Shown here piece by piece: positions 9,470-51,607 of a stretch of DNA of 64,000 nt (position 1 is its first letter; the number at the start of each line of letters is the position of its first letter). The stretch is from an uncultured virus (IMG/VR IMGVR_UViG_3300042863_000355) (lineage: Duplodnaviria > Heunggongvirae > Uroviricota > Caudoviricetes), in the IMG/VR virus record IMGVR_UViG_3300042863_000355. One strand, given 5' to 3'. Made by a program: the position numbers and the translations under genes. Below the pieces are notes generated by a model, which worked only from the letters and a program-made list of their open reading frames with translations, made no database searches and was not told the DNA's origin.

Positions 9470-12400
9470 TGGCATTTCCCGTATCGCCCGTAAATGGGCA
9501 AACCGCAACCGTAAACAATATTGTTTACGTATTTTCCACTGCTAACAACACGTGGACTAGGTCTGCGACGGGATTTGTTAATATTGGTGCATCTGGTAAT
9601 ATATCAGCTGCTGGAAATATCTACGGTAATTATATCGTAGGTAATATTTCCGGCACAGTTACTACTGCTCAAACAGTTACTACCAATGCTCAACCGAATA
9701 TTACATCAGTAGGAACATTAACTAGTTTAACATCGTCTGGTTTAATCAGTACAACGGGCAACATTGTTGGCAATTACCTATTTGGTAATGGTAACCTACT
9801 AACTAACGTTGTTGCCAATACTATAAACACAACATTTAGCGGCTCGGCAAATACTTTTTACATTGATTTTGTTGCAGATGACGGTGCTAACGCTCAGACA
9901 ATTTGGAATTCACCATTTTTAACTTTTGTTCCAATTAGTGGAATATTAGGCGCATCAGCATTCACGGCAACTGGCAATATAAATGGCGCTAATATTTTAT
10001 CTGCTGGATTATTAACTGCTACTGGTAATATATTAGGTGGTAACATACTTACTGCCGGATTAATATCAGCAACAAGTACTATCACAAGTGCCGCTAACAT
10101 TACTGGTGGCAATCTTCTAACAGCAGGTTTAATTAGTTCAACTGGCGCCATAACAGGCGCAGCATTAACTGGAACAAGTTTAACTGTATCAACCGGCAAT
10201 ATTACTGGTGGTAACTTACTATTGAGTGGAGCAATTACTGATTCCGGTCAATTAGATATTCAAACTAGTGCAGGTAATGCTAACATTGTGTTAACTCCAA
10301 ATGGAACTGGTAATGTTAACACAGGTGCTAATTTAAGTGTTACAGGAAATGTTCAAGCAGGTAATGTCAGAACAGCTGGATTAATTTCAGCAACTGGAAA
10401 TATAAACGGCGGTAACATTGTAACAAGTAGAGTAGTTGTTTCAGGTAATGCTGCTGTTAATACATTAGTATCTATCACAGACACAGCGCCACAAGGAACT
10501 GGCGCGGCATTTAGTGTTACTAATGCTGGAAATACAATTTCTATACTGCCCAATATTTCTGCTGGATCATTTAACAGCTTACAGTCAAATGGTGACATAG
10601 CAATATTAACTACAGGTCCTACTATAGGTAATGTAGGATTTTCAATTATACCATGGGCAGGCGGAACTAATGGTATAAAAATGAATACTGTGTCAAACGT
10701 AACTACTATAACGTTGGCTGCGGCAACACTTTCAACTACTGGCAATATAACTGGCGGAATTGGTAATTTAACAACTGGAAATATACTAACTCCCGGTATT
10801 ATGAGCAGTACTGGTAATGCGATACATGGTAATATCTTAACTGCCGGTATTATGTCAAGTACTGGCAACGCAATACATGGCAATATTTTAACTGCTGGCC
10901 TAATTTCAGCTACTAGCACAATTACATCAGCAGCAAATATTACTGGTGGTAATATATTAACTGCCGGTATTATGAGCAGTACTGGTAACGCAATACATGG
11001 CAATATTTTAACTGCTGGCCTAATTTCAGCTACGAGCACAATTACATCAGCAGCAAATATTACTGGTGGTAACATATTAACAGCTGGATTAATGTCAAGT
11101 ACTGGCAACGCAATACATGGAAATATCCTAACAGCTGGATTAATAACTGCTACTGGTAACGTAACTGGCGGAAATATCCTAACAGCAGGAGCAGTTAGTT
11201 CTGCTGGAATAGTAACCGCAGCTAGCGTAGTTGGCGGTGTTATTACAGGTTCAAGTACCTCAGTTACTGGTGCTACAGTCGCAGCATCGGTTACTGCTAA
11301 TACTGCCACTGGTAGAGTAGGATTAGGTACAGATGGAGGAGGATCTTTAACATTAGGATTTCAAGCTAACAACGCATCTGCTACTACTCCTTATATTGAT
11401 TTTAATTCTAGTGCTAATTATGTTGATTTTGATGCTCGTATACAAGCTTCTGGTAATACTGGCACGACTGGTGCCGGCACATTAACTGTAACCGCTGCTA
11501 TTCTTGCAGCAAGCGCATTGTTCAGCGCAGCAGGTAATGTTATTGGTGGAAATATCCTAACAGCCGGTATAATGTCAAGTACTGGCAATGCAATACACGG
11601 CAATATCTTAACAGCCGGCTTAGTTTCAGCAACCGGAAATATTACTGGTAACTTTATACTGGGTAATGGATCGCAACTTACTGGTATTATTACAAGTGTA
11701 TCTAACGTTGTAAACGGTGGAAGTAATTTAAACATTGCTGCGGCAAACGCCAATGTAACTATATCAGTTAGCACAGTCGGTAACGTTGCTGTATTTTCAC
11801 CAACTGGTGTTAGTGTACTTGGAACTATAGCTGGAAATGGTAATATTACTGGCGGCAATTTATTAACAGCAGGATTGATTAGTTCAACAGGAACTATCAC
11901 AGGATCAAGTCATTTAGGTGCTGTAGTTTCGGTAACTGCAAACGTAACTGGCGGTAACTTATTAACAGCTGGATTGATTTCAGCAACTTCAACAATTACA
12001 TCAGCAGCAAACGTTGTTGGTGGAAATATTACAACTGCTGGTCTAGTAACTGCTACAGGTAACGTAACAGGCGGAAATATCTTAACTGCCGGTATTATGT
12101 CAAGTACTGGCAACGCAATACATGGTAATATTTTAACAGCAGGTATTGTAAGTGCTACTGCTAATGTAACTGGCGGTAATGTTCTAACAGCAGGATTGAT
12201 TAGTTCAACTGGAAATATAACAGCAAACTATCACATTGGTAATGGTTCTACATTAACATCATTAACCGGTGGTAACGTAACTGGTACTGTAGCAAACGCA
12301 ACATTTGCTGTATCAGCAGGATCGGCGGTTGGAACTGCTGCTACTGTTACTACAAATGCTCAACCAAATATTACTTCGGTTGGTACATTAACTAGTTTAA

Positions 12401-15327
12401 CATCAAGTGGATTAATCAGTACAACTGGTAATATTGCCGGCGGTAATTTATCGGGTACATTAATTACAGGTACTCTTGCTACAGCGGCACAGCCAAATGT
12501 CACTAGTTTAGGTACATTAACAAGTTTAAGCGTAACAGGCAACACGACTGGTGGTAATTTCACAACAAGTGGAACTATATCAGTTGGTGGTATCACACTA
12601 AGTGGTAACTTAATTGTAGGTGCTGGCCCAACATTAACTATTGATCCAAATGGATCGGGTGGTACTGATGGTAACGTTGTTATTACAGGTAACTTAACTG
12701 TCAATGGTACAACAACCACAATTAATTCTAATACAATTACCACAAATGATTTACAAATTAATATGGCCAACAATGCTGCTAACGCAACAGCAGCAAATAA
12801 TGGCGGTATTGGGGTTGGTCCTGCGGGCGCAGAATACGCAACATTATTATATAACACAGCATCAAACGTTTGGGTATCAAGTTTAGGTATTAGTTCAGTT
12901 GGTAATATAACAGCGGGCCTTGGAATTACTGCCACTGGAAACTTAGCCGGCGGTAATATATCAACCGCCGGATTAATATCAGCAACTGGAACAATTACTA
13001 CAACATCGGGGATTGTGTTAAACAATGGCCTCTCTGATGGTGCCGGAATCCAATTCCAATCGGCAGGAAACCAAACATGGGAAATTGATAATTTACTTAA
13101 TTTAAGATTCTTCCAACCTGGAAATACTTACATGACTCTGAGTAATACCTCAGGATTAAGTGTCACAGGTAACGTTACTTCTGGTAATGTGGTAACCGCT
13201 GGGTTAATAACAGCAACTGGAAACTTAACCGGCGGAAATATCCTAACTGCTGGTATTATGTCAAGTACTGGTAATGCGATACATGGCAATATTTTAACTG
13301 CTGGCCTAATTTCAGCAACAAGTACTATTACTTCAGCAGCAAACGTAATTGGTGGCAATATTACAACTGCCGGTCTTGTAACGTCTACAGGTAACGTAAC
13401 TGGCGGCAACCTCTTAACAGCTGGACTAATTTCAGCAACTTCAACAATTACATCGGCAGCTAACATAATTGGCGGCAACATTACAACTGCTGGTTTAGTG
13501 ACCGCCACTGGTAACGTAACCGGCGGTAACGTGTTAACAGCTGGATTAATGAGCAGTACTGGTAATGCGATACATGGAAATATTTTAACAGCTGGATTAA
13601 TTTCAGCAACTTCAACTATTACAAGTGCTGCTAATATTACTGGCGGTAACATATTAACTGGTGGGTTAATTAGTTCAACAGGCACTATTACTGGTTCAAG
13701 TCATTTAGGTGCTGTTGTTTCGGTAACTGCAAACGTAACTGGTGGAAATATTACTACTGCTGGCCTAGTGTCGGCAACCGGCAATATAACGGGTGGTAAT
13801 TTATTAACAGCTGGATTAATCAGTTCAACAGGTACTATTACTGGATCAAGTCATTTAGGTGCTGTTGTTTCAGTAACAGCAAACGTAACTGGCGGCAACA
13901 TATTAACAGCAGGATTAATCAGTGCCACTGGTGCTATTACCGGCGCAGCATTAACTGGAACAAGTTTAACAGTATCAACTGGTAATATTACCGGCGGCAA
14001 CTTGCTGCTAAGTGGTGCAATTACTGATTCCGGTCAGTTAGACATTAATACTAGTGCTGGTAATTCTAATATTGTATTAACTCCAAATGGAACAGGTAAT
14101 GTTAACACAGGTGCTAATTTAAGTGTTACAGGTAATATTCAAGGTGGTAATGTCAGAACAGCTGGTATTGTATCAGCAACTGGAAACGTTACTGGCGGTA
14201 ATATTCTAACGGCTGGCATTGTATCAGCAACTTCAACGATTACTTCGGCAGCTAATATAACTGGTGGTAATATTTTAACTGTTGGACTAGTAAGTGCTAC
14301 TGCTAACGTAACTGGCGGTAACTTACTAACAAGCGGACAGGTGTATGCCACTGGTACTGTTACAGGGATCAACGGATTCATAGTAGGGCCTTGGAATTTA
14401 GGATCAACTGATATTTCAGCCGCTGCTATTGGTGGTGGTACTACATCATCTGGTAGAACATTATTAGGATGGAATAGATCTGGCGGCGGTGGCGAATTTG
14501 ATATTATTGTCAATAGAAACGGTGGCAGTACCGGTGGATTAGCTCTATACGAATGGGCCAATACACTATCCAATACTACCACACTGGTTTTTAATGTTAC
14601 AGCAGCTGGCGCAACATCGGCAATTGGCAACATCACCGGTGCTAACTTAAATACTGCAGGATTAGTAAGTGCTAGCGGTAACGTAACCGGTGGTAATGTC
14701 AGAACAGCAGGGTTGATAAGTGCCACTGGTGCTATAACAGGCGCAGCATTAACTGGAACAAGTTTAACTGTATCAACTGGTAATATTACTGGCGGTAACT
14801 TAATTTTAAGTGGAGCAATTACTGATTCAACCGAATTGCTCTTACAAACAACTGCTGTTAATGCTAATATTGTATTAACACCAAATGGCACAGGTAATGT
14901 TAACACAGGCGCTAACGTAAGTGTTACTGGAAATATTCAAGGTGGTAACTTACGGACCGCTGGTATTGTATCAGCAACTGGTAATATTACAGGTAGCTTT
15001 ATACTGGGTAACGGCAGTCAACTGACTGGAATTAGTACTGGCAGTAGCTCAAACATAAGCAATGGTACAAGTAATGTAAGCATTACCGCAAGTGGTGGTA
15101 ATGTAACTGTGGGTGTTGGTGGCACAGCCAACGTGGCAACATTTACATCATCCGGCGTAAAGGCTCCTGTTGTAGAAGCCACAAACGGTATTTTAGTTAA
15201 CAGTAGCAACGTAACAGCTAATTATACTATAGCAGCGAATACAAATGGATTTAGTGTGGGTCCAATTACTACTAACGGTGGTGTAGTTGTCACAGTTACC
15301 GCTGGGCAGCGTTGGGTAATTATTTAA
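9469..15327 (+). CDS. Giant repeat fibre protein (1952 aa)
   Basis: Same N-terminal module and repeats as the upstream gene; TAATG stop/start overlap; ends VGPIT...VTVTAGQRWVII. Confidence 0.75.
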   Translation: MAFPVSPVNGQTATVNNIVYVFSTANNTWTRSATGFVNIGASGNISAAGNIYGNYIVGNISGTVTTAQTVTTNAQPNITSVGTLTSLTSSGLISTTGNIVGNYLFGNGNLLTNVVANTINTTFSGSANTFYIDFVADDGANAQTIWNSPFLTFVPISGILGASAFTATGNINGANILSAGLLTATGNILGGNILTAGLISATSTITSAANITGGNLLTAGLISSTGAITGAALTGTSLTVSTGNITGGNLLLSGAITDSGQLDIQTSAGNANIVLTPNGTGNVNTGANLSVTGNVQAGNVRTAGLISATGNINGGNIVTSRVVVSGNAAVNTLVSITDTAPQGTGAAFSVTNAGNTISILPNISAGSFNSLQSNGDIAILTTGPTIGNVGFSIIPWAGGTNGIKMNTVSNVTTITLAAATLSTTGNITGGIGNLTTGNILTPGIMSSTGNAIHGNILTAGIMSSTGNAIHGNILTAGLISATSTITSAANITGGNILTAGIMSSTGNAIHGNILTAGLISATSTITSAANITGGNILTAGLMSSTGNAIHGNILTAGLITATGNVTGGNILTAGAVSSAGIVTAASVVGGVITGSSTSVTGATVAASVTANTATGRVGLGTDGGGSLTLGFQANNASATTPYIDFNSSANYVDFDARIQASGNTGTTGAGTLTVTAAILAASALFSAAGNVIGGNILTAGIMSSTGNAIHGNILTAGLVSATGNITGNFILGNGSQLTGIITSVSNVVNGGSNLNIAAANANVTISVSTVGNVAVFSPTGVSVLGTIAGNGNITGGNLLTAGLISSTGTITGSSHLGAVVSVTANVTGGNLLTAGLISATSTITSAANVVGGNITTAGLVTATGNVTGGNILTAGIMSSTGNAIHGNILTAGIVSATANVTGGNVLTAGLISSTGNITANYHIGNGSTLTSLTGGNVTGTVANATFAVSAGSAVGTAATVTTNAQPNITSVGTLTSLTSSGLISTTGNIAGGNLSGTLITGTLATAAQPNVTSLGTLTSLSVTGNTTGGNFTTSGTISVGGITLSGNLIVGAGPTLTIDPNGSGGTDGNVVITGNLTVNGTTTTINSNTITTNDLQINMANNAANATAANNGGIGVGPAGAEYATLLYNTASNVWVSSLGISSVGNITAGLGITATGNLAGGNISTAGLISATGTITTTSGIVLNNGLSDGAGIQFQSAGNQTWEIDNLLNLRFFQPGNTYMTLSNTSGLSVTGNVTSGNVVTAGLITATGNLTGGNILTAGIMSSTGNAIHGNILTAGLISATSTITSAANVIGGNITTAGLVTSTGNVTGGNLLTAGLISATSTITSAANIIGGNITTAGLVTATGNVTGGNVLTAGLMSSTGNAIHGNILTAGLISATSTITSAANITGGNILTGGLISSTGTITGSSHLGAVVSVTANVTGGNITTAGLVSATGNITGGNLLTAGLISSTGTITGSSHLGAVVSVTANVTGGNILTAGLISATGAITGAALTGTSLTVSTGNITGGNLLLSGAITDSGQLDINTSAGNSNIVLTPNGTGNVNTGANLSVTGNIQGGNVRTAGIVSATGNVTGGNILTAGIVSATSTITSAANITGGNILTVGLVSATANVTGGNLLTSGQVYATGTVTGINGFIVGPWNLGSTDISAAAIGGGTTSSGRTLLGWNRSGGGGEFDIIVNRNGGSTGGLALYEWANTLSNTTTLVFNVTAAGATSAIGNITGANLNTAGLVSASGNVTGGNVRTAGLISATGAITGAALTGTSLTVSTGNITGGNLILSGAITDSTELLLQTTAVNANIVLTPNGTGNVNTGANVSVTGNIQGGNLRTAGIVSATGNITGSFILGNGSQLTGISTGSSSNISNGTSNVSITASGGNVTVGVGGTANVATFTSSGVKAPVVEATNGILVNSSNVTANYTIAANTNGFSVGPITTNGGVVVTVTAGQRWVII

Positions 15328-39430: not shown

Positions 39431-39919
39431 ATGGCACAGGCAAATGTACTAACATCAGCATCAAATGTAATTTGGTACACTGATAAATGTGAAATTGTTA
39501 CAGGCAATACTGCTGTCACATATAACGTTTATCAGGTTGCGTTGCCTCCACAAATTACATTTAGTGGTACTACTGCTAATCTTAGTAATGTTATCACTAC
39601 TACCGCATCAATGGTATTGCCAGCAGGTAGCGCAATTACTGGAACTGGCATTGCAGCTTCAACCACTATAGCTTCACAAATTCCGTATGTTAGTGTAACC
39701 CTAAGTGCTAATGCTACAGCAAATGCCACTAATGTGTTTACTGTAACAACTCCTCCTAATGGTAATTTGTACTCAGCTGCTCCGCAAGTTTCAGCTAATT
39801 CTAGTCAACAAATTTACGTTGGTGCTGGTAACTATCTAACTGTTACCGGAGCTAACTTTACTGCTAGAGAATTAGGAACAGCATCATCTGCTACGGCTGG
39901 TGTTAACGGGCAAGGTTAA
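39431..39919 (+). CDS. Hypothetical virion structural protein
   Basis: Thr/Ala/Asn-rich beta-type sequence; AGGA RBS. Confidence 0.55.
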   Translation: MAQANVLTSASNVIWYTDKCEIVTGNTAVTYNVYQVALPPQITFSGTTANLSNVITTTASMVLPAGSAITGTGIAASTTIASQIPYVSVTLSANATANATNVFTVTTPPNGNLYSAAPQVSANSSQQIYVGAGNYLTVTGANFTARELGTASSATAGVNGQG

Positions 39920-39921
39920 TC

Positions 39922-40299
39922 ATGCGAGCCCGTGAGTTTATTGTTGAAAATGCTGTAGGTAAACTTAGCAAACATCATCAAGAAGCTACTCGCGGACTAA
40001 ATGTTTTTGCCAAGAGAATAGATACTTACGATAAATTATATGATTTAAATCGTGTAATGATGGCAGTAGCAAGTAGTGATGGAATAAACCCAATAGAAAT
40101 GGATTCTGAAAGTTGGGTGGGCAAACATAATACTGCACACGCTTATACTGAAGAAGAACAGAATATGCTTAAATTGGCATACAAAGCTGCCGGCGTAGAA
40201 TATAAAGATTTAAATGATGGTAATTTAAATAGTGAAGAATTAGCATCGACGAACACAGATAGTCCAGTGGTAGCATTTAAAGGATACAAACGCAAATGA
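39922..40299 (+). CDS. Hypothetical protein, paralogue of the next gene
   Basis: MRAREFIVE...SPVVAFKGYKRK. Confidence 0.65.
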   Translation: MRAREFIVENAVGKLSKHHQEATRGLNVFAKRIDTYDKLYDLNRVMMAVASSDGINPIEMDSESWVGKHNTAHAYTEEEQNMLKLAYKAAGVEYKDLNDGNLNSEELASTNTDSPVVAFKGYKRK

Positions 40300-40697
40300 G
40301 AGCCCGTGAATTTATTGCGGAAGATACAAGTTTTGACAAGGGCTCTATACAGACTGACGTTGCTCGTAGTTTGCCATCAACATATATTATTCCAGCCTTA
40401 CAAAATCAAAATGCATACATGCAATATAGATTTAGTGTAGCATTAGCAGGAGCCAAAGGAAAAGAAGAAAGAAAAAAAGAAGGTGATCCTGAATTTAATA
40501 CTACTACCAGTTGGGGAGAAAATGAAATTATTATATCATCTGATCCTGATATCGAAAAATGGATTGATATTGCTTTAAAAGATATGGGATTGCCAAGCTC
40601 TGACAAAAGATTAGTAAGCACTAAAACTAGTGATGAACCCGCTAGTACCATTACAAAAAGCCCTGTAACTGCCTTTACTGGGTACAAAAGAAAATAA
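40296..40697 (+). CDS. Hypothetical protein, paralogue of the previous gene
   Basis: MRAREFIAE...SPVTAFTGYKRK. Confidence 0.65.
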   Translation: MRAREFIAEDTSFDKGSIQTDVARSLPSTYIIPALQNQNAYMQYRFSVALAGAKGKEERKKEGDPEFNTTTSWGENEIIISSDPDIEKWIDIALKDMGLPSSDKRLVSTKTSDEPASTITKSPVTAFTGYKRK

Positions 40698-41513
40698 ATG
40701 AAGAAGTTATTCGTTGTATTATTATCGATATTATCATCTACTGTATTTGCGTGGGATCAACGCCCTCCTAACCCAGTAGCAGCATGCCAAATACATGCCC
40801 CATACGGGTTTCCTCAAAGTTCTAGATCAATACAACCTATTTGTAGACAAGCATATCTAGTGGGATATGATTCTGCTGCCAAAATACCAGAGTTTGTAAT
40901 GTACGAACTTATTCCTACTAACGCATTAGGTTGCATACCACGAACCAATGCGTTTGTTGCTGATCAATCTATACGTAATGGTCCTCGCCCAGATGATTAT
41001 GCTGGCACAGGTTACGATAAAGGACATATGGCTCCGGATGGAGATTTAAGTTGGAATATGCAAGTTGAACTTGAATCATTTTTAATGACTAACATGGTTC
41101 CGCAAGCCGGGTCATTAAACCGTGGAATTTGGAAATTACTAGAAACATCTATCCGAGGGTGGACAGTACAGCTTAATAATTCTTATACAATCATAACCGG
41201 TAGCATATATGCACCTGGTGACAAGATTATTGGCAATGGAGTAGTTGTGCCACGTGGATTTTATAAGATTGTTATCAATAATCAAACAAATGAAGTGGCA
41301 GGTTGGCAATTCCCACATGTGCCACCATATCCAAATTTAGGCAATGACCTAACTAAATTCCGTGTGTCTGTAGCACAAATTATGCAAACAGCCGGCGTTA
41401 AGTATGCGTTTCCCACTAATGCAGTAGAATTACCACCAGGCAAAGAATGGCCTGTAAATTTTGGTAAATTGGTACAGACTAAACGTGCAAGGTGCGGTGC
41501 TGCAAATGGTTAA
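40698..41513 (+). CDS. DNA/RNA non-specific endonuclease (NucA/EndoG family) with signal peptide
   Basis: GYDKGHMAP active site, SFLMTNMVPQ...NRGIW, VP..FYK; MKKLFVVLLSILSSTVFA signal peptide. Confidence 0.9.
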   Translation: MKKLFVVLLSILSSTVFAWDQRPPNPVAACQIHAPYGFPQSSRSIQPICRQAYLVGYDSAAKIPEFVMYELIPTNALGCIPRTNAFVADQSIRNGPRPDDYAGTGYDKGHMAPDGDLSWNMQVELESFLMTNMVPQAGSLNRGIWKLLETSIRGWTVQLNNSYTIITGSIYAPGDKIIGNGVVVPRGFYKIVINNQTNEVAGWQFPHVPPYPNLGNDLTKFRVSVAQIMQTAGVKYAFPTNAVELPPGKEWPVNFGKLVQTKRARCGAANG

Positions 41514-41565
41514 ATGCCATAAATTGGCAAATGATTTTAATACCTAATTAAAATCCAACATTATT

Positions 41566-41829
41566 ATGACTAAACAATATAGGATCACAACACAAAATTT
41601 AACTCAAAGTAGCGAAGATGATTGCTATCTTGAGCCAGATGATCCTGTGTATCAATTGCTAATTGCCAGTCACATGGGTGGGTTAGGCAGTCAATCAAAG
41701 TTAGCAGAATACAATAGGATTACATCCGAACGACAAAAAGCTAAAATATCACCCGAGCTTGAATATGCTAAATCAACAGGAATACGCCCAGGGACGCCGG
41801 CTTGGTATGCGCTGTTTCCTAAGAAGTAA
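41566..41829 (+). CDS. Hypothetical protein
   Basis: 87-aa ORF ending IRPGTPAWYALF, just upstream of terminase. Confidence 0.55.
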   Translation: MTKQYRITTQNLTQSSEDDCYLEPDDPVYQLLIASHMGGLGSQSKLAEYNRITSERQKAKISPELEYAKSTGIRPGTPAWYALFPKK

Positions 41830-41851
41830 CACATTTTAAAGTAAATACAAC

Positions 41852-43414
41852 ATGGGATTTGATTCACACTCGCTGGCAAAAACGCCACATAAAAAAGAAA
41901 TATATACAGAGCAACAGCTTACAGAATTTGCTGCCTGCGCCGATCCGGTTACTGGGCCAGAATATTTTATGCGTAATTTCTTCTATATTCAACAAACAGT
42001 TGGTGGAAGAACACTATATAAACCCTTTGAATATCAAGTACGATTAATTGACACTTATCATAATTATCGTTTCTCAATAGCTATGATGCCACGCCAAACA
42101 GGCAAGTCAACATCAGCGGCGGGCTATCTATTATGGTATGCTATGTTTGTGCCTGACTCAACAGTTCTTATTGCTGCACACAAATTCGACGGATCGCAAG
42201 AGATTATGAAACGTATTCGTTTTGCATACGAATTATGTCCTGACCATATTCGCGCAGGAGCCACTAATTATAATTTAGGTTCAATAGATTTTGAAAACGG
42301 AAGTCGTATTGTATCAGCTACAACTACAGAAAATACTGGCCGTGGTATGTCAATTTCACTCTTATATTGCGATGAGTTTGCATTCGTGCGGCCAAGTGTA
42401 GCACAAGAATTCTGGACTTCTATAAGCCCAACATTGGCAACTGGTGGATCAGCTATCATTACTTCCACTCCAAATAGCGACGAAGATCAATTTGCGCTAT
42501 TGTGGAAAGGCGCCAATAAAATGGAAGATAGCCATGGTAATCCACAAGATTTAGGTATAAACGGATTTAGAGCATTCCGTAGCTATTGGCGCGAACATCC
42601 TGATAGAGACGACAACTGGGCCTCATCTATGCGGGCACAGTTAGGGGAAGATCAATTCCGTCGCGAGATGGATTGTGAATTTATTATTAATGATGAAACA
42701 CTCATTGCTCCAGCTAAACTCATAGATTTAGAAGGTATTGAACCTACACATCGCACAGCACAAGTACGTTGGTACAAGGAACCACAAGCCGGCAAAATGT
42801 ACTGTGTCGGACTTGACCCATCACTGGGAACTGGTGGTGATCCCTCTGCTATACAAATTTTTGAAGCTAATAGTACAGAACAAATTGGTGAATGGAAACA
42901 CAATAGAACAACAATTCCTGAGCAAGTACGTATACTTGCAGACATTATAAAACACATTTATAGTTTTACCAAAGACGAACAATCAATATATTATTCGGTT
43001 GAGAATAACACTATCGGAGAAGCTGCACTTATATCTATAGAGCAGTTTGGAGAAGAGAACATTAAGGGCTATTTCTTGTCAGACCCTACCAGAGGAGCCG
43101 GCAGGTATCGGAAAGGTTTTAACACTAGTCCTAAAAACAAGCTAACAGCATGTTCTAAGTTAAAAACGTTGATAGAATCAAATAAAATGAAATTACGGAG
43201 TCGTCCACTCATTTCTGAACTTAAAACATTTGTGGCCAATGGAGTTAGTTATGCAGCTAAACCCGGGTCAACTGACGACTTAGTTATGGCTACACTACTA
43301 GTTACACGCATGATGATACTATTGCAGACATATCACCCAGAGATGGACACTCAAATGCGTGATCATGGTGAAAGTATCGTTCCGCCGTTGCCATTCATTG
43401 CTACGATGTATTAA
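41852..43414 (+). CDS. terL: Terminase large subunit (T4 gp17-like)
   Basis: PRQTGKS Walker A, LLYCDEFAF Walker B, TSTPN, GLDPS and DDLVMA nuclease motifs. Confidence 0.95.
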   Translation: MGFDSHSLAKTPHKKEIYTEQQLTEFAACADPVTGPEYFMRNFFYIQQTVGGRTLYKPFEYQVRLIDTYHNYRFSIAMMPRQTGKSTSAAGYLLWYAMFVPDSTVLIAAHKFDGSQEIMKRIRFAYELCPDHIRAGATNYNLGSIDFENGSRIVSATTTENTGRGMSISLLYCDEFAFVRPSVAQEFWTSISPTLATGGSAIITSTPNSDEDQFALLWKGANKMEDSHGNPQDLGINGFRAFRSYWREHPDRDDNWASSMRAQLGEDQFRREMDCEFIINDETLIAPAKLIDLEGIEPTHRTAQVRWYKEPQAGKMYCVGLDPSLGTGGDPSAIQIFEANSTEQIGEWKHNRTTIPEQVRILADIIKHIYSFTKDEQSIYYSVENNTIGEAALISIEQFGEENIKGYFLSDPTRGAGRYRKGFNTSPKNKLTACSKLKTLIESNKMKLRSRPLISELKTFVANGVSYAAKPGSTDDLVMATLLVTRMMILLQTYHPEMDTQMRDHGESIVPPLPFIATMY

Positions 43415-47980: not shown

Positions 47981-48232
47981 ATGTCAGTAGATTTATCAAG
48001 AGAAATTTATAACGAGTTAAAACGGTTTATCAACGTAGTTGATCGTGATGAAGCAGCAGAAACATTAGTATCAGTATTAATTGACAACGATATTTCTGCG
48101 GATGATATTAAAGATGCATTTAAGGGCGAAGCAGATATTAAGCGGGCTCTTACCAGTTATCTTAAAGATCATCTAGAAGAAGAAGAGGAAGACGATTACG
48201 ACGAAGACGAAGACGAAGATTATGAGAACTAG
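47981..48232 (+). CDS. Small acidic hypothetical protein
   Basis: GGAGG RBS; poly-D/E C-terminus. Confidence 0.65.
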   Translation: MSVDLSREIYNELKRFINVVDRDEAAETLVSVLIDNDISADDIKDAFKGEADIKRALTSYLKDHLEEEEEDDYDEDEDEDYEN

Positions 48233-48234
48233 TT

Positions 48235-48687
48235 ATGTGGTATAGTCGAGTAACAGCTAACTTAGGTGTAATACCAGATTTTATCGCACACTATGAAGCT
48301 GAACTTGTAAATGCTAAAAAAGAATGTCAGGTAGGGGGTATTATTGAAAAAAATATTACTTCCTTACCTGGCATTACTGAGCATAGATTTAATCAATTAC
48401 AAGAGATTGAGGCTGTATTAAACTATCTTAATATTCAACTACGTAAAATTCGTCGTAAACATTTTCAAAAATATCTAGAAGGATATGCTCGTGCTTTGAC
48501 TAGTAGAGATGCCGAAAAGTATGTAGATGGTGAAGATGAAGTTATTGATTTTGAAACATTAATAAATGAACTTGCATTATTACGAAATCGTTATCTAGGT
48601 ATTATGAAAGGACTTGAGTCTAAAAACTTTATGCTAGGGCATGTTGTTAGACTTAGAGCAGCTGGAATGGAAGACGTACAGGTATAA
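48235..48687 (+). CDS. uvsY: Recombination mediator UvsY-like
   Basis: Helical protein with KYLEGY...LTSRDAEKYVDGE; between uvsX and uvsW. Confidence 0.7.
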   Translation: MWYSRVTANLGVIPDFIAHYEAELVNAKKECQVGGIIEKNITSLPGITEHRFNQLQEIEAVLNYLNIQLRKIRRKHFQKYLEGYARALTSRDAEKYVDGEDEVIDFETLINELALLRNRYLGIMKGLESKNFMLGHVVRLRAAGMEDVQV

Positions 48688-48688
48688 C

Positions 48689-49441
48689 ATGTTTAGAAAC
48701 GCAGAAGAATCACATCAGCATAGTCTACACACCTTAAATCAATTGTATGAATACGACGATTTTATGGCGTCTATAAAAACAGTTGCCGATTTAGGATGCG
48801 GAACTGGCGAGGATTTAGTATGGTGGGCAACAAGGACCATGCGTGATGACCGAAAGACTAAACTTAATATTAAATGTCAGGGCATAGATATTCTTAACAG
48901 GCTACCTATTGCCGGTGCATATCCTAATATAATTTATCAGAGAGCAGATTTCGAGGTTAAAATTAATGCACCTCCTGGAGGATTTGATATTTTATGGTGT
49001 CATGATGCTTTCCAGTATGTTGTTGATCCAATAAAAACTCTAACATATTGGCGAGATATTAGCTCAGAAGGGGCAATGCTAGCTATCATAGTACCACAAA
49101 CAACTAATATTCGGCAAAAAGATTTAGATTTTACTCAACATGATGGCTGTTATTATCATTATACCATAGTAAATCTTATTCATATGTTGGCTATAACAGG
49201 GTGGGATTGCAAGTCAGGATTTTTTAAAAAAGATCCTACTGACAATTGGCTACATGCCATAGTTTATAAAAGTCATCGTACCCCATTTGACTTGAAAAAA
49301 ACACGTTGGTACGATTTAGTAGATGCAAAATTATTACCAGATTCTGCAGATAAATCAATATTAGCCAAGGGTTACTTGGATCAAAAAGATTTAGTTCTTC
49401 CGTGGCTAAACAAAAGTTTATCCAGTATGAATACTCAATAG
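48689..49441 (+). CDS. Class I SAM-dependent methyltransferase
   Basis: VADLGCGTG, GID, FDILWCHDAFQY; start revised to MFRNAE. Confidence 0.8.
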   Translation: MFRNAEESHQHSLHTLNQLYEYDDFMASIKTVADLGCGTGEDLVWWATRTMRDDRKTKLNIKCQGIDILNRLPIAGAYPNIIYQRADFEVKINAPPGGFDILWCHDAFQYVVDPIKTLTYWRDISSEGAMLAIIVPQTTNIRQKDLDFTQHDGCYYHYTIVNLIHMLAITGWDCKSGFFKKDPTDNWLHAIVYKSHRTPFDLKKTRWYDLVDAKLLPDSADKSILAKGYLDQKDLVLPWLNKSLSSMNTQ

Positions 49442-49480
49442 CATAAAATTTACCCATACGCTAATTAGCGTATAAATAAA

Positions 49481-49553
49481 AGGTAGCTCCTGTATTGCTA
49501 CAAAAAAAGCAATACATTTTATCAGGCGCCTGTAAAACGGCGCCTGTTTTTTT
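49481..49553 (+). ncRNA. Candidate small non-coding RNA
   Basis: Between TATAAATA (49471-49478) and terminator CAGGCGCC/GGCGCCTG-T7; structured; no ATG on this strand. Confidence 0.55.
49523..49553 (+). terminator. Intrinsic terminator
   Basis: 8-bp GC stem followed by TTTTTTT. Confidence 0.8.
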
Positions 49554-49580
49554 GATTTAACGGGATAAGTGTGTTATTAT
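49552..49580 (+). promoter_or_regulatory. Sigma70-like promoter for uvsW
   Basis: TTGATT-17 nt-TATTAT. Confidence 0.5.
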
Positions 49581-49602
49581 TACAACATGAAAACATATCA
49601 AT

Positions 49603-51066
49603 ATGAAAACAGCTACAATTATAATTAAAGACGAAGTCAATATTAAGATTGAAGGGCTTGATCTTGACGCTCGTAAAAAGCTAGTCAATACCTTTAAGTA
49701 TGATGTACCTGGCGCAAGGTATCAGCCAGCAGTTAGATTAGGCAGATGGGATGGAAAAGTTGCTTACTTTCAACTAGGTGGTAGCACATATACTAATTTA
49801 CTTCCTGAAATTATTCCAATATTAGATAATTTTAACTACGACATACAGCTTGATGATCAAAGAGATTATTCAACTAACTTTACGTTTGAGCAAGTAACTG
49901 AAAATACGTTTGCCCATATTAATTGGGCAGAAGGGCATCCTATGGAAGGACAGCCTATTAAATTGCGTGATTATCAAGTTGAAATTATCAACAACTTTTT
50001 AGAAAATCCACAATCAATACAAGAAATTGCTACAGGTGCTGGCAAAACTATTATGACAGCAGCACTAAGTCAGCGATGCGAAGCACATGGCAGAACTATT
50101 GTAATTGTACCAAACAAATCACTGGTCACTCAAACTGAAAAAGACTATAAAGGGCTAGGCTTAGATGTAGGGGTATACTTTGGTGATAGAAAAGATATAG
50201 GCAAAACACATACTATCTGTACATGGCAAAGTCTAAATATCCTAATGAAAAATAGTAAAGATGATGTAGTAGCATGGACTACTATGGGTGCATTCTTACA
50301 AGATGTTGTATGCGTAATGGTCGATGAAGTTCATATGGCCAAAGCTGATGCACTTAAAACATTACTGACTACAATAATGAGTCGTGTACCAATTAGATGG
50401 GGATTAACTGGAACTGTTCCTAAGGAACCATTTGAATTTCAAGCATTGAAATGTAGCTTAGGCCCGGTGATTAATCAACTATCTGCGAGTGAATTACAGA
50501 ATCGAGGGGTACTAGCACAATGTCATGTAAATATTGTACAACTGGTTGACCACGCAGAATTTAGTAACTATCAAAGTGAGTTGAAATTTTTATTAGAAGA
50601 TAGCAAACGTCTAGAAACTGTGGCTAAACTTGTCACACAAGTAAATTTAACAGGCAATACATTGGTACTAGTAGATCGTGTGGCCCCAGGTCATGCTCTT
50701 GTAGAATTGCTAGGTGATCGTGCGGTATTTGTTAGCGGTGCAACTAAAGGAACTAAAAGAGATGAAGAATATAATGAAGTGGCAACTAGTACGGATAAAA
50801 TTATCGTGGCAACTTACGGCGTTGCCGCTGTTGGAATCAATATTCCTCGTATCTTTAATCTGGTCCTTATCGAGCCTGGCAAATCTTTTGTTAGGGTAAT
50901 ACAAAGTATAGGCCGTGGCATTAGAAAAGCTGAAGATAAAGATCATGTGCAAATATGGGATGTAACATCAACTTGTAAATTTGCTAAACGACATTTAACC
51001 AAGCGTAAGGTATTTTACAAAGACGCAAACTATCCTTTTACACAAGAGAAACTGGAATGGAAGTGA
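49603..51066 (+). CDS. uvsW: SF2 helicase UvsW
   Basis: WDGK, LRDYQ, ATGAGKT, DEVH, GLTGT, QSIGRGIR. Confidence 0.95.
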   Translation: MKTATIIIKDEVNIKIEGLDLDARKKLVNTFKYDVPGARYQPAVRLGRWDGKVAYFQLGGSTYTNLLPEIIPILDNFNYDIQLDDQRDYSTNFTFEQVTENTFAHINWAEGHPMEGQPIKLRDYQVEIINNFLENPQSIQEIATGAGKTIMTAALSQRCEAHGRTIVIVPNKSLVTQTEKDYKGLGLDVGVYFGDRKDIGKTHTICTWQSLNILMKNSKDDVVAWTTMGAFLQDVVCVMVDEVHMAKADALKTLLTTIMSRVPIRWGLTGTVPKEPFEFQALKCSLGPVINQLSASELQNRGVLAQCHVNIVQLVDHAEFSNYQSELKFLLEDSKRLETVAKLVTQVNLTGNTLVLVDRVAPGHALVELLGDRAVFVSGATKGTKRDEEYNEVATSTDKIIVATYGVAAVGINIPRIFNLVLIEPGKSFVRVIQSIGRGIRKAEDKDHVQIWDVTSTCKFAKRHLTKRKVFYKDANYPFTQEKLEWK

Positions 51067-51071
51067 TGCGG

Positions 51072-51100
51072 TTGCTCTATACAATTTTACAAAGTATAAT
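51072..51100 (+). promoter_or_regulatory. Sigma70-type promoter
   Basis: TTGCTC-17 nt-TATAAT, 6 nt before ATG 51107. Confidence 0.65.
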
Positions 51101-51106
51101 AACAAT

Positions 51107-51607
51107 ATGAAAATATTAACCCTTGACAATGAACCTTACGACTTAGATCATTTACCCGAAGAAATAGATGATATGCGTTTTGCTATTTTAGATAATTCCA
51201 ATCCGCAAGACCCTGACTATCATTATATTCCTTTGATCTTCTTAGAAAGCTTCAATAGCCCGGCATTGGTATTGCAAATAGGCGAATATAAAATACGTAT
51301 GCCAGTTGATTGGCAACTGTTAATTGGTGATCCGGATGCAGGTGATTTAGAAGTTATTCCATTATCAGCTCTTAATGACAGAGGATTTCAAGCATTTCAA
51401 TTTAATCCATTAACTAGTTTTAGGCCAAGTTTTTTGAATGTTGAAATCTTAGACGTATATCAAGATGTAGCATGGTATGCTCCGAAACTTAAAAATGGAC
51501 AATTGTTGTGTGTTCCAATAAGTGAAGGAGAGAAGCCTGAGTGTGTTTATTTTGTCAAAGACATTAGTCGCACTTGTGAAATAGTTAACTATGGAAAATC
51601 GTTTTAA
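51107..51607 (+). CDS. Hypothetical all-beta protein
   Basis: 166-aa ORF with its own promoter; see findings for possible Hint-like fold. Confidence 0.65.
   Translation: MKILTLDNEPYDLDHLPEEIDDMRFAILDNSNPQDPDYHYIPLIFLESFNSPALVLQIGEYKIRMPVDWQLLIGDPDAGDLEVIPLSALNDRGFQAFQFNPLTSFRPSFLNVEILDVYQDVAWYAPKLKNGQLLCVPISEGEKPECVYFVKDISRTCEIVNYGKSF

What the first reader, a model, noticed from the sequence alone, without database searches (positions are those of the whole stretch)
49456..49553. Stand-alone late small RNA with a pseudoknot/hairpin switch and an anti-SD-like CUCCU
Seen: a perfect 18-bp palindrome (ATACGCTAATTAGCGTAT, 49456-49473) overlaps an exact TATAAATA. About 70 nt with no ATG follow, then a GC terminator with T7. 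The RNA can fold as an H-type pseudoknot (S1 GUAGC 49483-87/GCUAC 49497-501; S2 UGUAUU 49491-96/AAUACA 49511-16; A7-rich connecting loop). Alternatively it can form a 9-bp hairpin UGUAUUGCU/AGCAAUACA that frees the 5' AGCUCC. Established: compact pseudoknots with A-rich loops occur in preQ1-I aptamers and in type III TA antitoxins (ToxI), which some phages mimic. Inference: an unannotated phage sRNA, possibly an anti-defence decoy, or an SD-pairing RNA (CUCCU) in a phage whose own mRNAs are often leaderless; the palindrome could be an operator.
Basis: partly seen in the sequence, partly recalled or inferred. Interest (0 to 1): 0.75.

Follow-up and report, generated by a model that had tools for sequence, protein, structure and literature searches.

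The report
Orphaned anti-ribosome-site RNA tail element
The small structured RNA region in front of the phage's uvsW helicase gene is a copy of a widespread phage "message tail" whose exposed letters normally pair with the ribosome-binding site of an ATPase gene, but in this phage it has been cut loose from that gene, so it is either a leftover or a new free-standing regulator.

Summary
The sequence features are real: palindrome, exact TATAAATA, ATG-free ~70 nt, a 9-bp hairpin and a GC terminator with T7. The pseudoknot is not conserved. No Rfam family matches.

The stretch 49480-49553 belongs to a conserved family in uncultured T4-like giant phages. It has a single-stranded (GG)UAGCUCCUG, a hairpin P1, an AU linker and a terminator fused to an early promoter (a PeSL). 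In 70 distinct copies both hairpins pair in 99.2% of cells, and 11 of 15 pairs show compensatory changes.

In 63 of 70 copies the element ends the message of a T4 nrdC.10-like AAA ATPase gene. Its open motif is the complement of that gene's ribosome-binding site. The two sites covary across clades (UAGCUCCU/AGGAGCUA, UACUCCGUUA/UAACGGAGUA, GGUUGGCUCC/GGAGCCAACC, UUACUAGCCC/GGGCUAGUAA and others). The closest known mechanism is the icaR 3'UTR/SD pairing of S. aureus.

This window has no nrdC.10 homologue in 64 kb. The element follows a methyltransferase gene in the variable uvsY-uvsW interval. The TATAAATA arose by one G-to-A change relative to the nearest relatives.

Whether this copy acts in trans, possibly as a late small RNA, or is a relic remains open.

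The parts
48689..49441 (+). Methyltransferase gene whose message the element ends in this window. The likely start is the ATG directly after the uvsY stop; the longer ORF begins at 48641.
   Evidence: Pfam Methyltransf_11 and related families, and a PHROG methyltransferase family. The in-frame ATG after the uvsY stop was read. The homologue in G012 is 80% identical and sits in the same context.
49456..49473 (+). P0, an optional upstream hairpin (the perfect palindrome).
   Evidence: Relatives have hairpins of unrelated sequence at this place, maintained by compensatory and U-G changes (L156, L350). In many relatives P0 embeds the stop codon of nrdC.10.
49471..49478 (+). TATAAATA, a T4-type late-promoter-like octamer.
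   Evidence: Exact match. TAAATA is strongly enriched in intergenic DNA 2-59 nt before starts. The nearest relatives L156, L229, L350, L351 and L354 read TATAAGTA. Activity was not tested.
49482..49492 (+). Anti-RBS word GGUAGCUCCUG (core UAGCUCCU at 49484-49491), single-stranded.
   Evidence: Invariant in A1. It is the complement of the AGGAGCUA ribosome-binding site of nrdC.10-like genes in relatives: 29 of 36 have a run of 8 nt or more. It covaries across clades. No matching RBS lies in the window.
49491..49516 (+). P1 hairpin, 9 bp.
   Evidence: Five of 8 pairs have changes on both sides, and 98.8% of cells are paired in 70 sequences.
49517..49522 (+). Conserved AU-rich linker (UUUUAU).
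   Evidence: Alignments A1 and A2.
49523..49553 (+). Intrinsic terminator: 8-bp GC stem, 8-nt loop and T7. This is the stem-loop half of a PeSL.
   Evidence: Six of 7 pairs have changes on both sides, and 99.8% of cells are paired.
49552..49580 (+). Early sigma-70-like promoter TTGATT-17-TATTAT with an upstream TG. This is the promoter half of the PeSL.
   Evidence: The same T-run/TTGAC fusion occurs in relatives. The PeSL definition comes from PMC4122927.
49587..49628 (+). 13-codon mini-ORF that starts 6 nt after the -10 box and overlaps the uvsW start out of frame. It comes from a 16-nt near-duplicate of the uvsW start.
   Evidence: Read. It is conserved in L156 and L350.
49603..51066 (+). 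UvsW-type helicase gene.
   Evidence: Pfam ResIII, DEAD, Helicase_C and UvsW_N. 599 of 600 pattern-matched stretches in viral contigs encode relatives of it (tblastn E <= 1e-3).

Best explanation
Bases 49480-49553 are a copy of a conserved phage RNA module. I call it the nrdC.10 tail anti-RBS element.

The module has four parts. An exposed word (GG)UAGCUCCUG comes first. It is held single-stranded next to a stable hairpin P1. An AU-rich linker follows. The last part is an intrinsic terminator fused to an early promoter, that is, a PeSL.

In relatives the module ends the early message of a T4 nrdC.10-like AAA ATPase gene. The exposed word base-pairs with that gene's own ribosome-binding site. 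The RBS is an extended Shine-Dalgarno sequence, and the start codon is often UUG. The inferred consequence is that the message closes on itself, or is closed by released tails, and translation is limited.

In this window the module has been separated from nrdC.10 by rearrangement of the hypervariable uvsY-uvsW interval. It now ends the uvsX-uvsY-methyltransferase message.

The most likely working here is inferred, not shown. The RNA is made as that 3' tail, and perhaps also as a ~70-nt late transcript from the TATAAATA that begins at or next to the UAGCUCCU word. It would then act in trans on an AGGAGC(U)A-type RBS of an nrdC.10-like message encoded outside the 64-kb window.

My odds:
- same family as the relatives: about 0.95;
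- the family works by RBS pairing: about 0.85;
- this detached copy still acts on a target: about 0.45.
For: Shown:
1. Homology and structure. Model R1 scores the window copy at 62.7 bits, E = 1e-17, and it is the only significant hit in the window. In 70 distinct copies the two hairpins pair in 99.2% of cells. Eleven of 15 pairs and 164 cells have changes on both sides. None of 500 shuffles reaches these values, and slid controls pair in 34-39% of cells. G-U pairs fit only the + strand.
2. Linkage. 63 of 70 copies have an nrdC.10 homologue 1-1008 nt upstream. The gene is the T4 nrdC.10 / phrog_1250 AAA ATPase.
3. Complementarity. 36 of 36 close-clade loci with a visible RBS have a run of 6 nt or more, and 29 of 36 have 8 nt or more. 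Among unselected nrdC.10 loci, 43 of 56 have a run of 8 nt or more.
4. Covariation. Ten clade representatives have own-pair runs of mean 9.1 nt against 6.2 nt for cross pairs. None of 20,000 random reassignments reaches the observed sum. Further matched variants appear.
5. Loci without the element have other or weak SD sequences (L200, L219-221, L240).
6. Full-length mRNA folds pair the RBS with the tail word in 11 of 14 representatives, against 1 of 14 control genes.
7. There is one copy per near-complete genome (G017, G002, G018).
8. Detachment. The window has no nrdC.10 homologue. Gene order in G002 is uvsY-MTase-7.2 kb-nrdC.10-element-uvsW.
9. Across window, L156 and L229 the word AAAAGGTAGCTCCTGTAT and the linker are identical while all three stems change with compensation.
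10. L229, L351 and L354 carry the window-type element still linked to nrdC.10.
Against: - No transcript data exist: no RNA run was listed.
- The window's whole genome is not held. Whether it has an nrdC.10 gene at all is therefore unknown.
- The two longest contigs of the subclade lack nrdC.10 (G013 at 157 kb and G012 at 84.5 kb).
- No RBS in the 64-kb window matches the word beyond 5-6 nt.
- In L229, the closest linked copy, the match is only 6 contiguous pairs (AGGAGC), or 8 if a G-U pair is counted and P1 opens.
- L156 and L229 are very similar, so the detachment may be recent. Conservation of the word in the detached state is then weak evidence of function.
- Covariation cannot tell pairing within one message from pairing in trans. 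It also cannot tell repression from stabilisation.
- Three of 14 full-length folds did not show the pairing.
- T4 itself shows no such complementarity.
- Most rows of A1 were found with a pattern that fixes TAGCTCCTG. The invariance of that word is therefore partly by construction. The unselected sets show it too.
Confidence: 0.6

Rival explanations
1. Relic. After the block that carried nrdC.10 was deleted, the element survives only as the terminator and insulator part of the PeSL in front of uvsW. The anti-RBS word no longer has a partner.
For: - There is no nrdC.10 and no matching RBS in 64 kb.
- G013 and G012 also lack nrdC.10.
- Sister lineages L002, L004 and L005 have lost the whole interval, element included, and uvsY abuts uvsW.
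- L350 has further lost most of the methyltransferase gene.
- PeSL-flanked cassettes are known hot spots of indels (PMC4122927, passages read).
- The near-identity of the L156 and L229 elements suggests the detachment is recent.
Against: - The 18-nt word and the linker are identical in window, L156 and L229, while P0, P1 and the terminator stems changed with compensation and the flanks are unalignable.
- Detached copies persist in three contexts: window, L156 and L350. L350, however, was found with that same 18-mer.
- nrdC.10 with a window-type element exists in the same subclade (L229, L351, L354). The gene is therefore not generally lost.
Confidence: 0.3
2. Stand-alone late small RNA. TATAAATA fires late and gives a ~70-nt RNA whose 5' end is the UAGCUCCU seed. 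This RNA shuts off an SD-led message in trans. The reading is compatible with the best explanation, as its most active form.
For: - TATAAATA is exact.
- TAAATA marks 17 other intergenic sites, 16 of them 2-59 nt before a start codon and one 156 nt before.
- With the spacing I recall for T4 late promoters (start about 6 nt after the octamer; recalled, from no call), the RNA would begin at 49484, the first base of the word.
- The layout of seed, hairpin, AU linker and terminator with a U-tail is that of many base-pairing small RNAs (recalled).
- An earlier unchecked note of this scan reports an unlinked second copy in another phage (e1-6126780).
Against: - The octamer is not conserved. L156, L229, L350, L351 and L354 read TATAAGTA, one G instead of A. 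Most relatives have TAAGTA as the 3' arm of P0, or no spacer at all between the stop codon and the word.
- P0, which would lie outside such a transcript, is nevertheless kept by compensation.
- This site is 124 nt from the next start, further than 16 of the 17 other intergenic TAAATA sites.
- No RNA data exist.
- The presence of a gp55-type late sigma factor was not tested.
Confidence: 0.3
3. Pseudoknot/hairpin switch that acts as an anti-defence decoy (a ToxI mimic) or as a preQ1-like aptamer.
For: In this one sequence GUAGC can pair with GCUAC, and the P1 loop is A-rich.
Against: - S1 pairs in 60.1% of cells and its central pair forms in 12 of 70 sequences.
- The A-rich loop is not conserved: loops are 3-8 nt of any sequence.
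- No Rfam match comes near a threshold.
- The element is single copy, not a tandem array.
Confidence: 0.02
4. DNA-level signal. The palindrome is an operator, or the RBS/tail complement is a pair of inverted repeats used for recombination of the cassette.
For: The palindrome is perfect. The region is recombinationally plastic.
Against: - P0 has no conserved sequence, has loops of 3-11 nt in relatives, includes G-U pairs and is often absent.
- The 5' partner always sits on the SD, 5-15 nt before the start codon. This is expected for RNA masking and not for recombination sites.
- The repeats are only 7-12 bp long.
Confidence: 0.04
5. General anti-SD sponge or protein decoy. An abundant CU-rich RNA titrates host SD-led messages, ribosomal protein S1 or Rho, and so favours the phage's leaderless messages.
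For: Many phage genes here are leaderless. Distant relatives carry long CU-rich loops with several CUCC repeats.
Against: The word tracks the specific extension of one gene's RBS in each clade (GCUA, CCAACC, CAA, UAACGGAGUA, GGGCUAGUAA). This would not be needed for a general sponge.
Confidence: 0.04

Closest known systems
icaR mRNA of Staphylococcus aureus: a 3'-UTR UCCCCUG motif pairs with the SD of the same message (PMC3868564, abstract read)
   Same: A pyrimidine-rich anti-SD word in the 3' untranslated tail is complementary to the SD region at the 5' end of the message. In icaR this blocks initiation and creates an RNase III substrate.
   Different: - This is a phage family, not a bacterial gene.
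- The word is presented next to, or in the loop of, a short hairpin directly before the terminator.
- The tail is short, at most about 100 nt.
- Pairing is supported here by covariation only, not by experiment.
- In this window the cognate gene is absent, so pairing within one message is impossible.
Long-range anti-SD-like sequences that pair with the RBS in Bacillus subtilis messages (preprint PMC12697547, abstract read). Also the hbs 5'/3'-UTR interaction (PMC5737220, search listing only).
   Same: Pyrimidine-rich words hundreds of nucleotides from the RBS can pair with it and lower translation and RNA stability. This makes the ~1.1-1.8 kb distance here plausible.
   Different: Those are synthetic substitutions, and natural genes are depleted of such words. 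Here the word is positively conserved and co-evolves with the RBS.
PeSL (promoter-early stem-loop) composite terminator/promoter motifs of T4-like phages (PMC4122927, abstract and passages read)
   Same: A stem-loop lies directly upstream of a sigma-70-like early promoter, in a hyperplastic region, next to indels between close relatives. Window 49523-49580 fits this description.
   Different: The PeSL description covers neither the anti-RBS word nor P1. PeSLs are repeated many times in a genome, whereas this module is single copy.
3'-UTR-derived base-pairing small RNAs of enterobacteria (for example CpxQ; recalled, from no call) and C-rich-loop sRNAs such as RsaE (PMC6158497, search listing only)
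   Same: The layout is seed, hairpin, AU-rich stretch and terminator with a U tail. The seed is complementary to an SD region. A possible origin is the tail of a message.
   Different: No evidence of processing, accumulation or chaperone binding exists here. The family's only supported target is its own message's RBS.
preQ1-I riboswitch and the ToxI antitoxin RNA
   Same: Small size and an A-rich loop in this one copy.
   Different: There is no conserved pseudoknot, no Rfam match and no tandem repeats.

Membership tests
nrdC.10 tail anti-RBS element (uncatalogued family defined here from relatives; also noted by earlier agents of this scan) | Sequence and structure: the word (GG)UAGCUCCUG, then hairpin P1, an AU linker and an intrinsic terminator. 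| tested here: met
   Model R1 scores the window copy at 62.7 bits, E = 1e-17, over the full model length. The window row was part of the model's seed alignment. L156, L229 and L003 align throughout.
nrdC.10 tail anti-RBS element | Location at the 3' end of the operon of an nrdC.10-like AAA ATPase gene. | tested here: not met
   tblastn finds no homologue in the 64-kb window. The upstream gene is a methyltransferase. 63 of 70 relatives meet this feature.
nrdC.10 tail anti-RBS element | The word is complementary to the RBS of the cognate gene in the same genome. | not testable with these tools
   The window's assembly is not held. No RBS in the window matches. Relatives: 29 of 36 have a run of 8 nt or more.
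nrdC.10 tail anti-RBS element | Single copy per genome. | tested here: inconclusive
   There is one hit in the window and one in each of three genomes that are 81-97% complete. The rest of this genome was not seen.
icaR-type 5'UTR/3'UTR pairing within one mRNA | The anti-SD word and the SD it matches lie on the same transcript. | tested here: not met
   No start region of the uvsX-uvsY-methyltransferase operon, or of any other gene in the window, pairs beyond 4-6 nt. The feature is met in relatives.
PeSL (PMC4122927) | A stem-loop directly upstream of a sigma-70-like early promoter, followed by the start of the next gene. | tested here: met
   The terminator at 49523-49553 overlaps TTGATT-17-TATTAT at 49552-49580. 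The definition comes from passages read.
PeSL (PMC4122927) | Lies in a hyperplastic region, next to indels between close relatives. | tested here: met
   The uvsY-uvsW interval measures 0 kb in L002/L004/L005, about 0.3 kb in L350, 0.9 kb in the window and about 10-11 kb in G002 and G017.
T4-type late promoter | The TATAAATA octamer. | tested here: met
   Exact match at 49471-49478. TAAATA is enriched in intergenic DNA.
T4-type late promoter | Conserved in relatives, a late sigma factor (gp55) is encoded, and a transcript start lies downstream. | tested here: not met
   Conservation is not met: five related copies read TATAAGTA. The gp55 gene and the transcript start were not tested.
Any Rfam family, including preQ1-I and sRNA families | Score at or above the family's gathering threshold. 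| tested here: not met
   The best hit is TarB at 22.8 bits against a threshold of 80. All 9 hits at E <= 10 lie far below their thresholds.
ToxI-type antitoxin RNA | A tandem array of repeats, each folding into a pseudoknot. | tested here: not met
   The element is single copy and the pseudoknot stem S1 is not conserved.

The most novel reading that the evidence does not exclude
This window may catch the birth of a trans-acting phage small RNA. A cis-acting anti-RBS message tail was cut loose from its ATPase gene by cassette shuffling at a PeSL. A single G-to-A change then turned TATAAGTA into the late promoter TATAAATA. The phage would then make, late in infection, a ~70-nt RNA that starts exactly at the UAGCUCCU seed and silences the early nrdC.10-type message, or another AGGAGCUA-led message, encoded elsewhere in the genome.
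Probability: 0.2. Interest if true: 0.8.

Novelty: new variant of a known kind. Interest (0 to 1): 0.62.

Why it matters
Masking of a ribosome-binding site by the message's own 3' tail has one well-studied bacterial example, icaR. My searches found no paper that describes it for phages or for nrdC.10.

Here it appears as a family with many independent compensatory changes between the two ends of a message. This is unusually strong comparative evidence for a long-range RNA-RNA contact. It also singles out a conserved T4-type ATPase of unknown function as a gene whose dosage the phage controls tightly.

The detached copy in this window is a natural experiment. If it is still active, the tail works in trans, and small RNAs can arise from message tails by cassette shuffling. 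If it is a relic, it shows how PeSL-mediated deletions strip regulators from their targets.

In practice the element is a compact, portable and tunable translation brake. It could be tested with simple reporters.

Tried and rejected
- RNA evidence: no RNA holder was listed for window 48000-51500.
- Rfam: nothing near a threshold. tRNA/tmRNA: none in the window.
- Own genome: not held. The nearest record, G001, does not cover the locus.
- Targets inside the window: the exact complement occurs only at the element itself. The 20 matches with 2 mismatches lie inside coding sequence, not at starts. The best duplexes with start regions are weak and not SD-centred.
- Targets in five long relatives: the extra CAGGAGCTA / TAGCTCCTG 9-mers are chance hits in coding DNA.
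- Anti-terminator idea (the word competing with the terminator's 3' arm): the 4-nt CCUG/CAGG match does not follow the CCGG variants (read), so I dropped it.
- Alternative pairing of the word with the P1 3' arm: no covariation (read).
- T4 and Acj9 nrdC.10: no meaningful RBS/tail match (-7.3 and -10.3 kcal/mol).
- Pseudomonas phage 30-2 (PA5oct group): its tail contains AUGCUACU, complementary to its RBS. That word sits in a strong local hairpin, and the full-length fold pairs the RBS elsewhere. I count it as ambiguous.
- Linking G015 (nrdC.10 with a window-type element) to the window lineage through neighbouring genes gave nothing usable.
- The 96.6-kb record behind L350 is not held, so I could not ask whether a genome with a detached element also has nrdC.10.
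- Earlier notes near this place or like this sequence: none.
- The first full-length folding script stopped at a locus without a T-run. I re-ran it with a fixed end.

Full report
**1. What is in the sequence.**

The 161-nt spacer between a methyltransferase gene and a UvsW helicase gene holds three hairpins in a row. The methyltransferase ends at 49441 and uvsW starts at 49603.

- The perfect palindrome lies at 49456-49473 (here P0).
- A 9-bp hairpin lies at 49491-49516 (P1).
- An 8-bp GC hairpin at 49523-49546 is followed by T7.

The scan lists P1 and the GC hairpin as terminator-like. It also finds TTGATT-17-TATTAT at 49552-49580, overlapping the T-run.

The RNA folds far better than shuffles do: z = -4.7 and -4.9, and 0 of 200 shuffles fold as well. 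TATAAATA is exact at 49471-49478. No ATG follows until after the T-run. Rfam gives nothing near any threshold; the best hit is 22.8 bits against 80. No tRNA is present.

**2. The phage.**

The neighbours are a gp32-like SSB, UvsX, UvsY, the methyltransferase and UvsW. The nearest cultured phages are only about 65-71% identical, over parts of uvsW. They include Atu_ph07, the PA5oct group and Rak2-like phages.

Two kinds of start context recur. Early-type sites read TTGAC...TATAAT-like. Late-type sites read TAAATA. In many cases the ATG lies only 4-7 nt behind the -10 or the TAAATA, so leaderless messages are common.

TAAATA has 33 + strand hits, and 18 of them touch the 3% of the window that is intergenic.

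**3. The element is a conserved family.**

I sampled relatives in four ways.

- uvsW relatives: 80 loci were kept of 599. At least 9 of the 80 carry a similar element upstream of uvsW: L001, L003, L006, L013, L026, L042 and L071, and L024 and L034.
- An unselected sample came from the 3' flanks of the usual upstream gene: 80 loci of 590.
- Together these gave 70 distinct close-clade copies.

Aligned in A1, P1 and the terminator behave as follows:

- 99.2% of 1050 cells are paired.
- 11 of 15 pairs, and 164 cells, show changes on both sides.
- 0 of 500 shuffles reach these values.
- Slid controls pair in 34-39% of cells.
- Cells that are not standard pairs are rare, and G-U cells are common, which fits the + strand only.

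I reject the pseudoknot.

A covariance model built from A1 finds one copy in the window (62.7 bits). It finds one copy in each of three genomes that are 81-97% complete.

**4. What the family does.**

In 63 of 70 copies a homologue of T4 nrdC.10 lies 1-1008 nt upstream. Seven copies have none in the DNA available, and five of those seven have under 500 nt of upstream sequence. The gene is phrog_1250, with weak AAA ATPase matches, and its function is unknown.

The gene has an early promoter and a 25-30-nt leader with an extended SD. Its start codon is often weak: ATG 18, TTG 15, GTG 3 of 36.

The exposed word of the tail is the complement of that RBS.

- In the close clade UAGCUCCU matches AGGAGCUA. 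All 36 of 36 loci with a visible RBS have a run of 6 nt or more, and 29 of 36 have 8 nt or more.
- Among unselected loci, 43 of 56 have a run of 8 nt or more.
- The 13 below that threshold fall into three groups. Some lack the element (L200, L219-221, L240). In some it lies beyond the 75-nt window (L201, L227, L256). Some have interrupted or shorter pairing (L229, L238, L250, L272, L277).

The two sites change together across clades:

| Tail word | RBS |
|---|---|
| UACUCCGUUA | UAACGGAGUA |
| UUGCUCCUCC | GGAGGAGCAA |
| CUUGCUCCUC | GAGGAGCAAG |
| UUGCUCCUU | AAGGAGCAA |
| CUCUCUCC | GGAGAGAG |
| GGUUGGCUCC | GGAGCCAACC |
| UUACUAGCCC | GGGCUAGUAA |

For ten representatives, own pairs average 9.1 nt against 6.2 nt for cross pairs. 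None of 20,000 random reassignments reaches the observed total. For duplex energy, 0.00015 of reassignments do.

Minimum-energy folds of whole ~1.1-kb messages pair the RBS with the tail word in 11 of 14 representatives. The same holds for 1 of 14 control genes of the window.

The word may sit 5' of P1, as in the window. It may instead sit in the 3' part of a large hairpin loop, as in L026, L222, L238 and L013. In both layouts it is kept single-stranded. Small membrane-peptide ORFs can lie between the gene and the tail.

- Shown: the complementarity and its co-evolution.
- Inferred: pairing masks the SD and limits translation, as in icaR (PMC3868564, abstract).
- Open: whether pairing is within one molecule or by released tails, and whether it represses or stabilises.

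In many lineages the stop codon lies 0-5 nt before the word, or inside P0. Terminating ribosomes may therefore cover the word. This is speculation.

**5. What is different in this window.**

The 64-kb window has no nrdC.10 homologue. In G002 the order is uvsX-orf83-uvsY-methyltransferase-7.2 kb-nrdC.10-element-gene-uvsW. The window subclade shows several other arrangements:

| Locus | Arrangement |
|---|---|
| L002, L004, L005 | uvsY directly abuts uvsW |
| window, L156 (G012) | uvsY-methyltransferase-element-uvsW |
| L350 | same as L156, with most of the methyltransferase gene deleted |
| L003 | nrdC.10-element-uvsW |
| L229, L351, L354 | nrdC.10, a small ORF and a window-type element, in another context |

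The terminator plus early promoter fits the PeSL composite described for T4-like phages as a hot spot of cassette indels (PMC4122927, abstract and passages). The element here has therefore been cut loose from its gene by shuffling in a hyperplastic interval.

Across window, L156 and L229 the 18-nt word region and the linker are identical. P0, P1 and the terminator stems differ with compensation, and the flanks do not align. This suggests that selection continues. But L156 and L229 are so alike that the detachment may be recent.

No RBS in the window matches the word. The whole genome is not held. G012 and G013 lack nrdC.10 in the parts that were assembled.

**6. The promoter question.**

TATAAATA is a good late-promoter candidate in this phage. 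With the start spacing I recall for T4, a transcript would begin at the first base of the word.

The five related copies read TATAAGTA. In most of the family the corresponding TAAG is simply the 3' arm of P0, which pairs with the stop-codon region. The octamer here is therefore a one-base novelty of this phage. It is identical in five further contigs: L328, L329, L331, L333 and L346.

It may make a late small RNA, feed late read-through into uvsW, or do nothing. No RNA data could be obtained.

**7. Verdict.**

The pseudoknot is not.
It is wrong in its analogies (preQ1, ToxI, operator) and in taking the stand-alone late RNA as the basic state.
- My searches found no paper on such elements in phages or on nrdC.10 regulation. 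One search found one paper, on domain matches only. Searches found bacterial cases only.
- After reaching this reading I found that earlier agents of this scan had noted the same kind of element behind ATPase genes in other genomes. Those are unchecked notes and not independent evidence. I re-derived and tested the claim here.
- What this window adds is the detached state.

Noticed in passing
window 49575-49628; also L156 1575-1640 and L350: In this lineage a 16-nt near-duplicate of the uvsW start (ATGAAAACATATCAAT before ATGAAAACAGCT) places a leaderless 13-codon mini-ORF at the usual distance from the -10 box. The real uvsW ATG is left 16 nt further on, out of frame and without an SD. Relatives such as L003 start uvsW itself 6 nt after the -10 box.
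   Followed up: partly
whole window, e.g. 25136, 34986, 41842, 43418 (TAAATA); 23155, 26033, 51107, 55145 (TATAAT-like): Many early-type and late-type genes have their ATG only 4-7 nt behind the -10 box or the TAAATA, so leaderless messages seem common. Others carry clear SD sequences (32205, 60724, 61286). TAAATA, rather than the full TATAAATA, looks like the late core.
   Followed up: partly
G012 (record of L156) 39618-42391; loci L306, L307: The uvsW gene of this relative is split by an insert of about 1.3 kb between residues ~248 and ~239 of the query. This suggests an intron, an intein or a homing-endonuclease insertion.
   Followed up: no
L013, L042, L071, L201, L227, L229, L309-L313 (between nrdC.10 and the tail element): One to three very small hydrophobic ORFs (about 30-80 codons) are inserted between the ATPase gene and the anti-RBS tail in several lineages. 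The tail stays complementary to the ATPase RBS up to 1.8 kb away.
   Followed up: no
L255, L258, L260, L262, L265, L267, L270-L278 (3' flanks of distant nrdC.10 homologues): Distant clades present the anti-RBS as long CU-rich hairpin loops with several CUCC/CCUCC repeats. These match purine-rich RBS sequences such as GGAGAGAGA or GGAGGAGCAA.
   Followed up: partly
L303 (Pseudomonas phage 30-2, PA5oct group) 3' flank of the nrdC.10 homologue: The tail contains AUGCUACU, complementary to the RBS GGAGUAGCAU, but inside a strong local hairpin whose 5' arm mimics the RBS. This might be a cultured system in which to test the idea.
   Followed up: partly
window 2813-15327: Two giant adjacent ORFs (2218 and 1952 aa) hold repeated CAGGNGCTAAC-like words. 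These explain the excess of near-matches to the complement of the element's word (21 found against 7.9 expected).
   Followed up: no
early promoters in relatives, e.g. L081, L089, L108 downstream of the terminator: The spacer of the early promoters carries a conserved TAAGTATG just before the -10 box (TTGACTTT...TAAGTATGTTATACT). This suggests an extended -10 or a regulator site.
   Followed up: no
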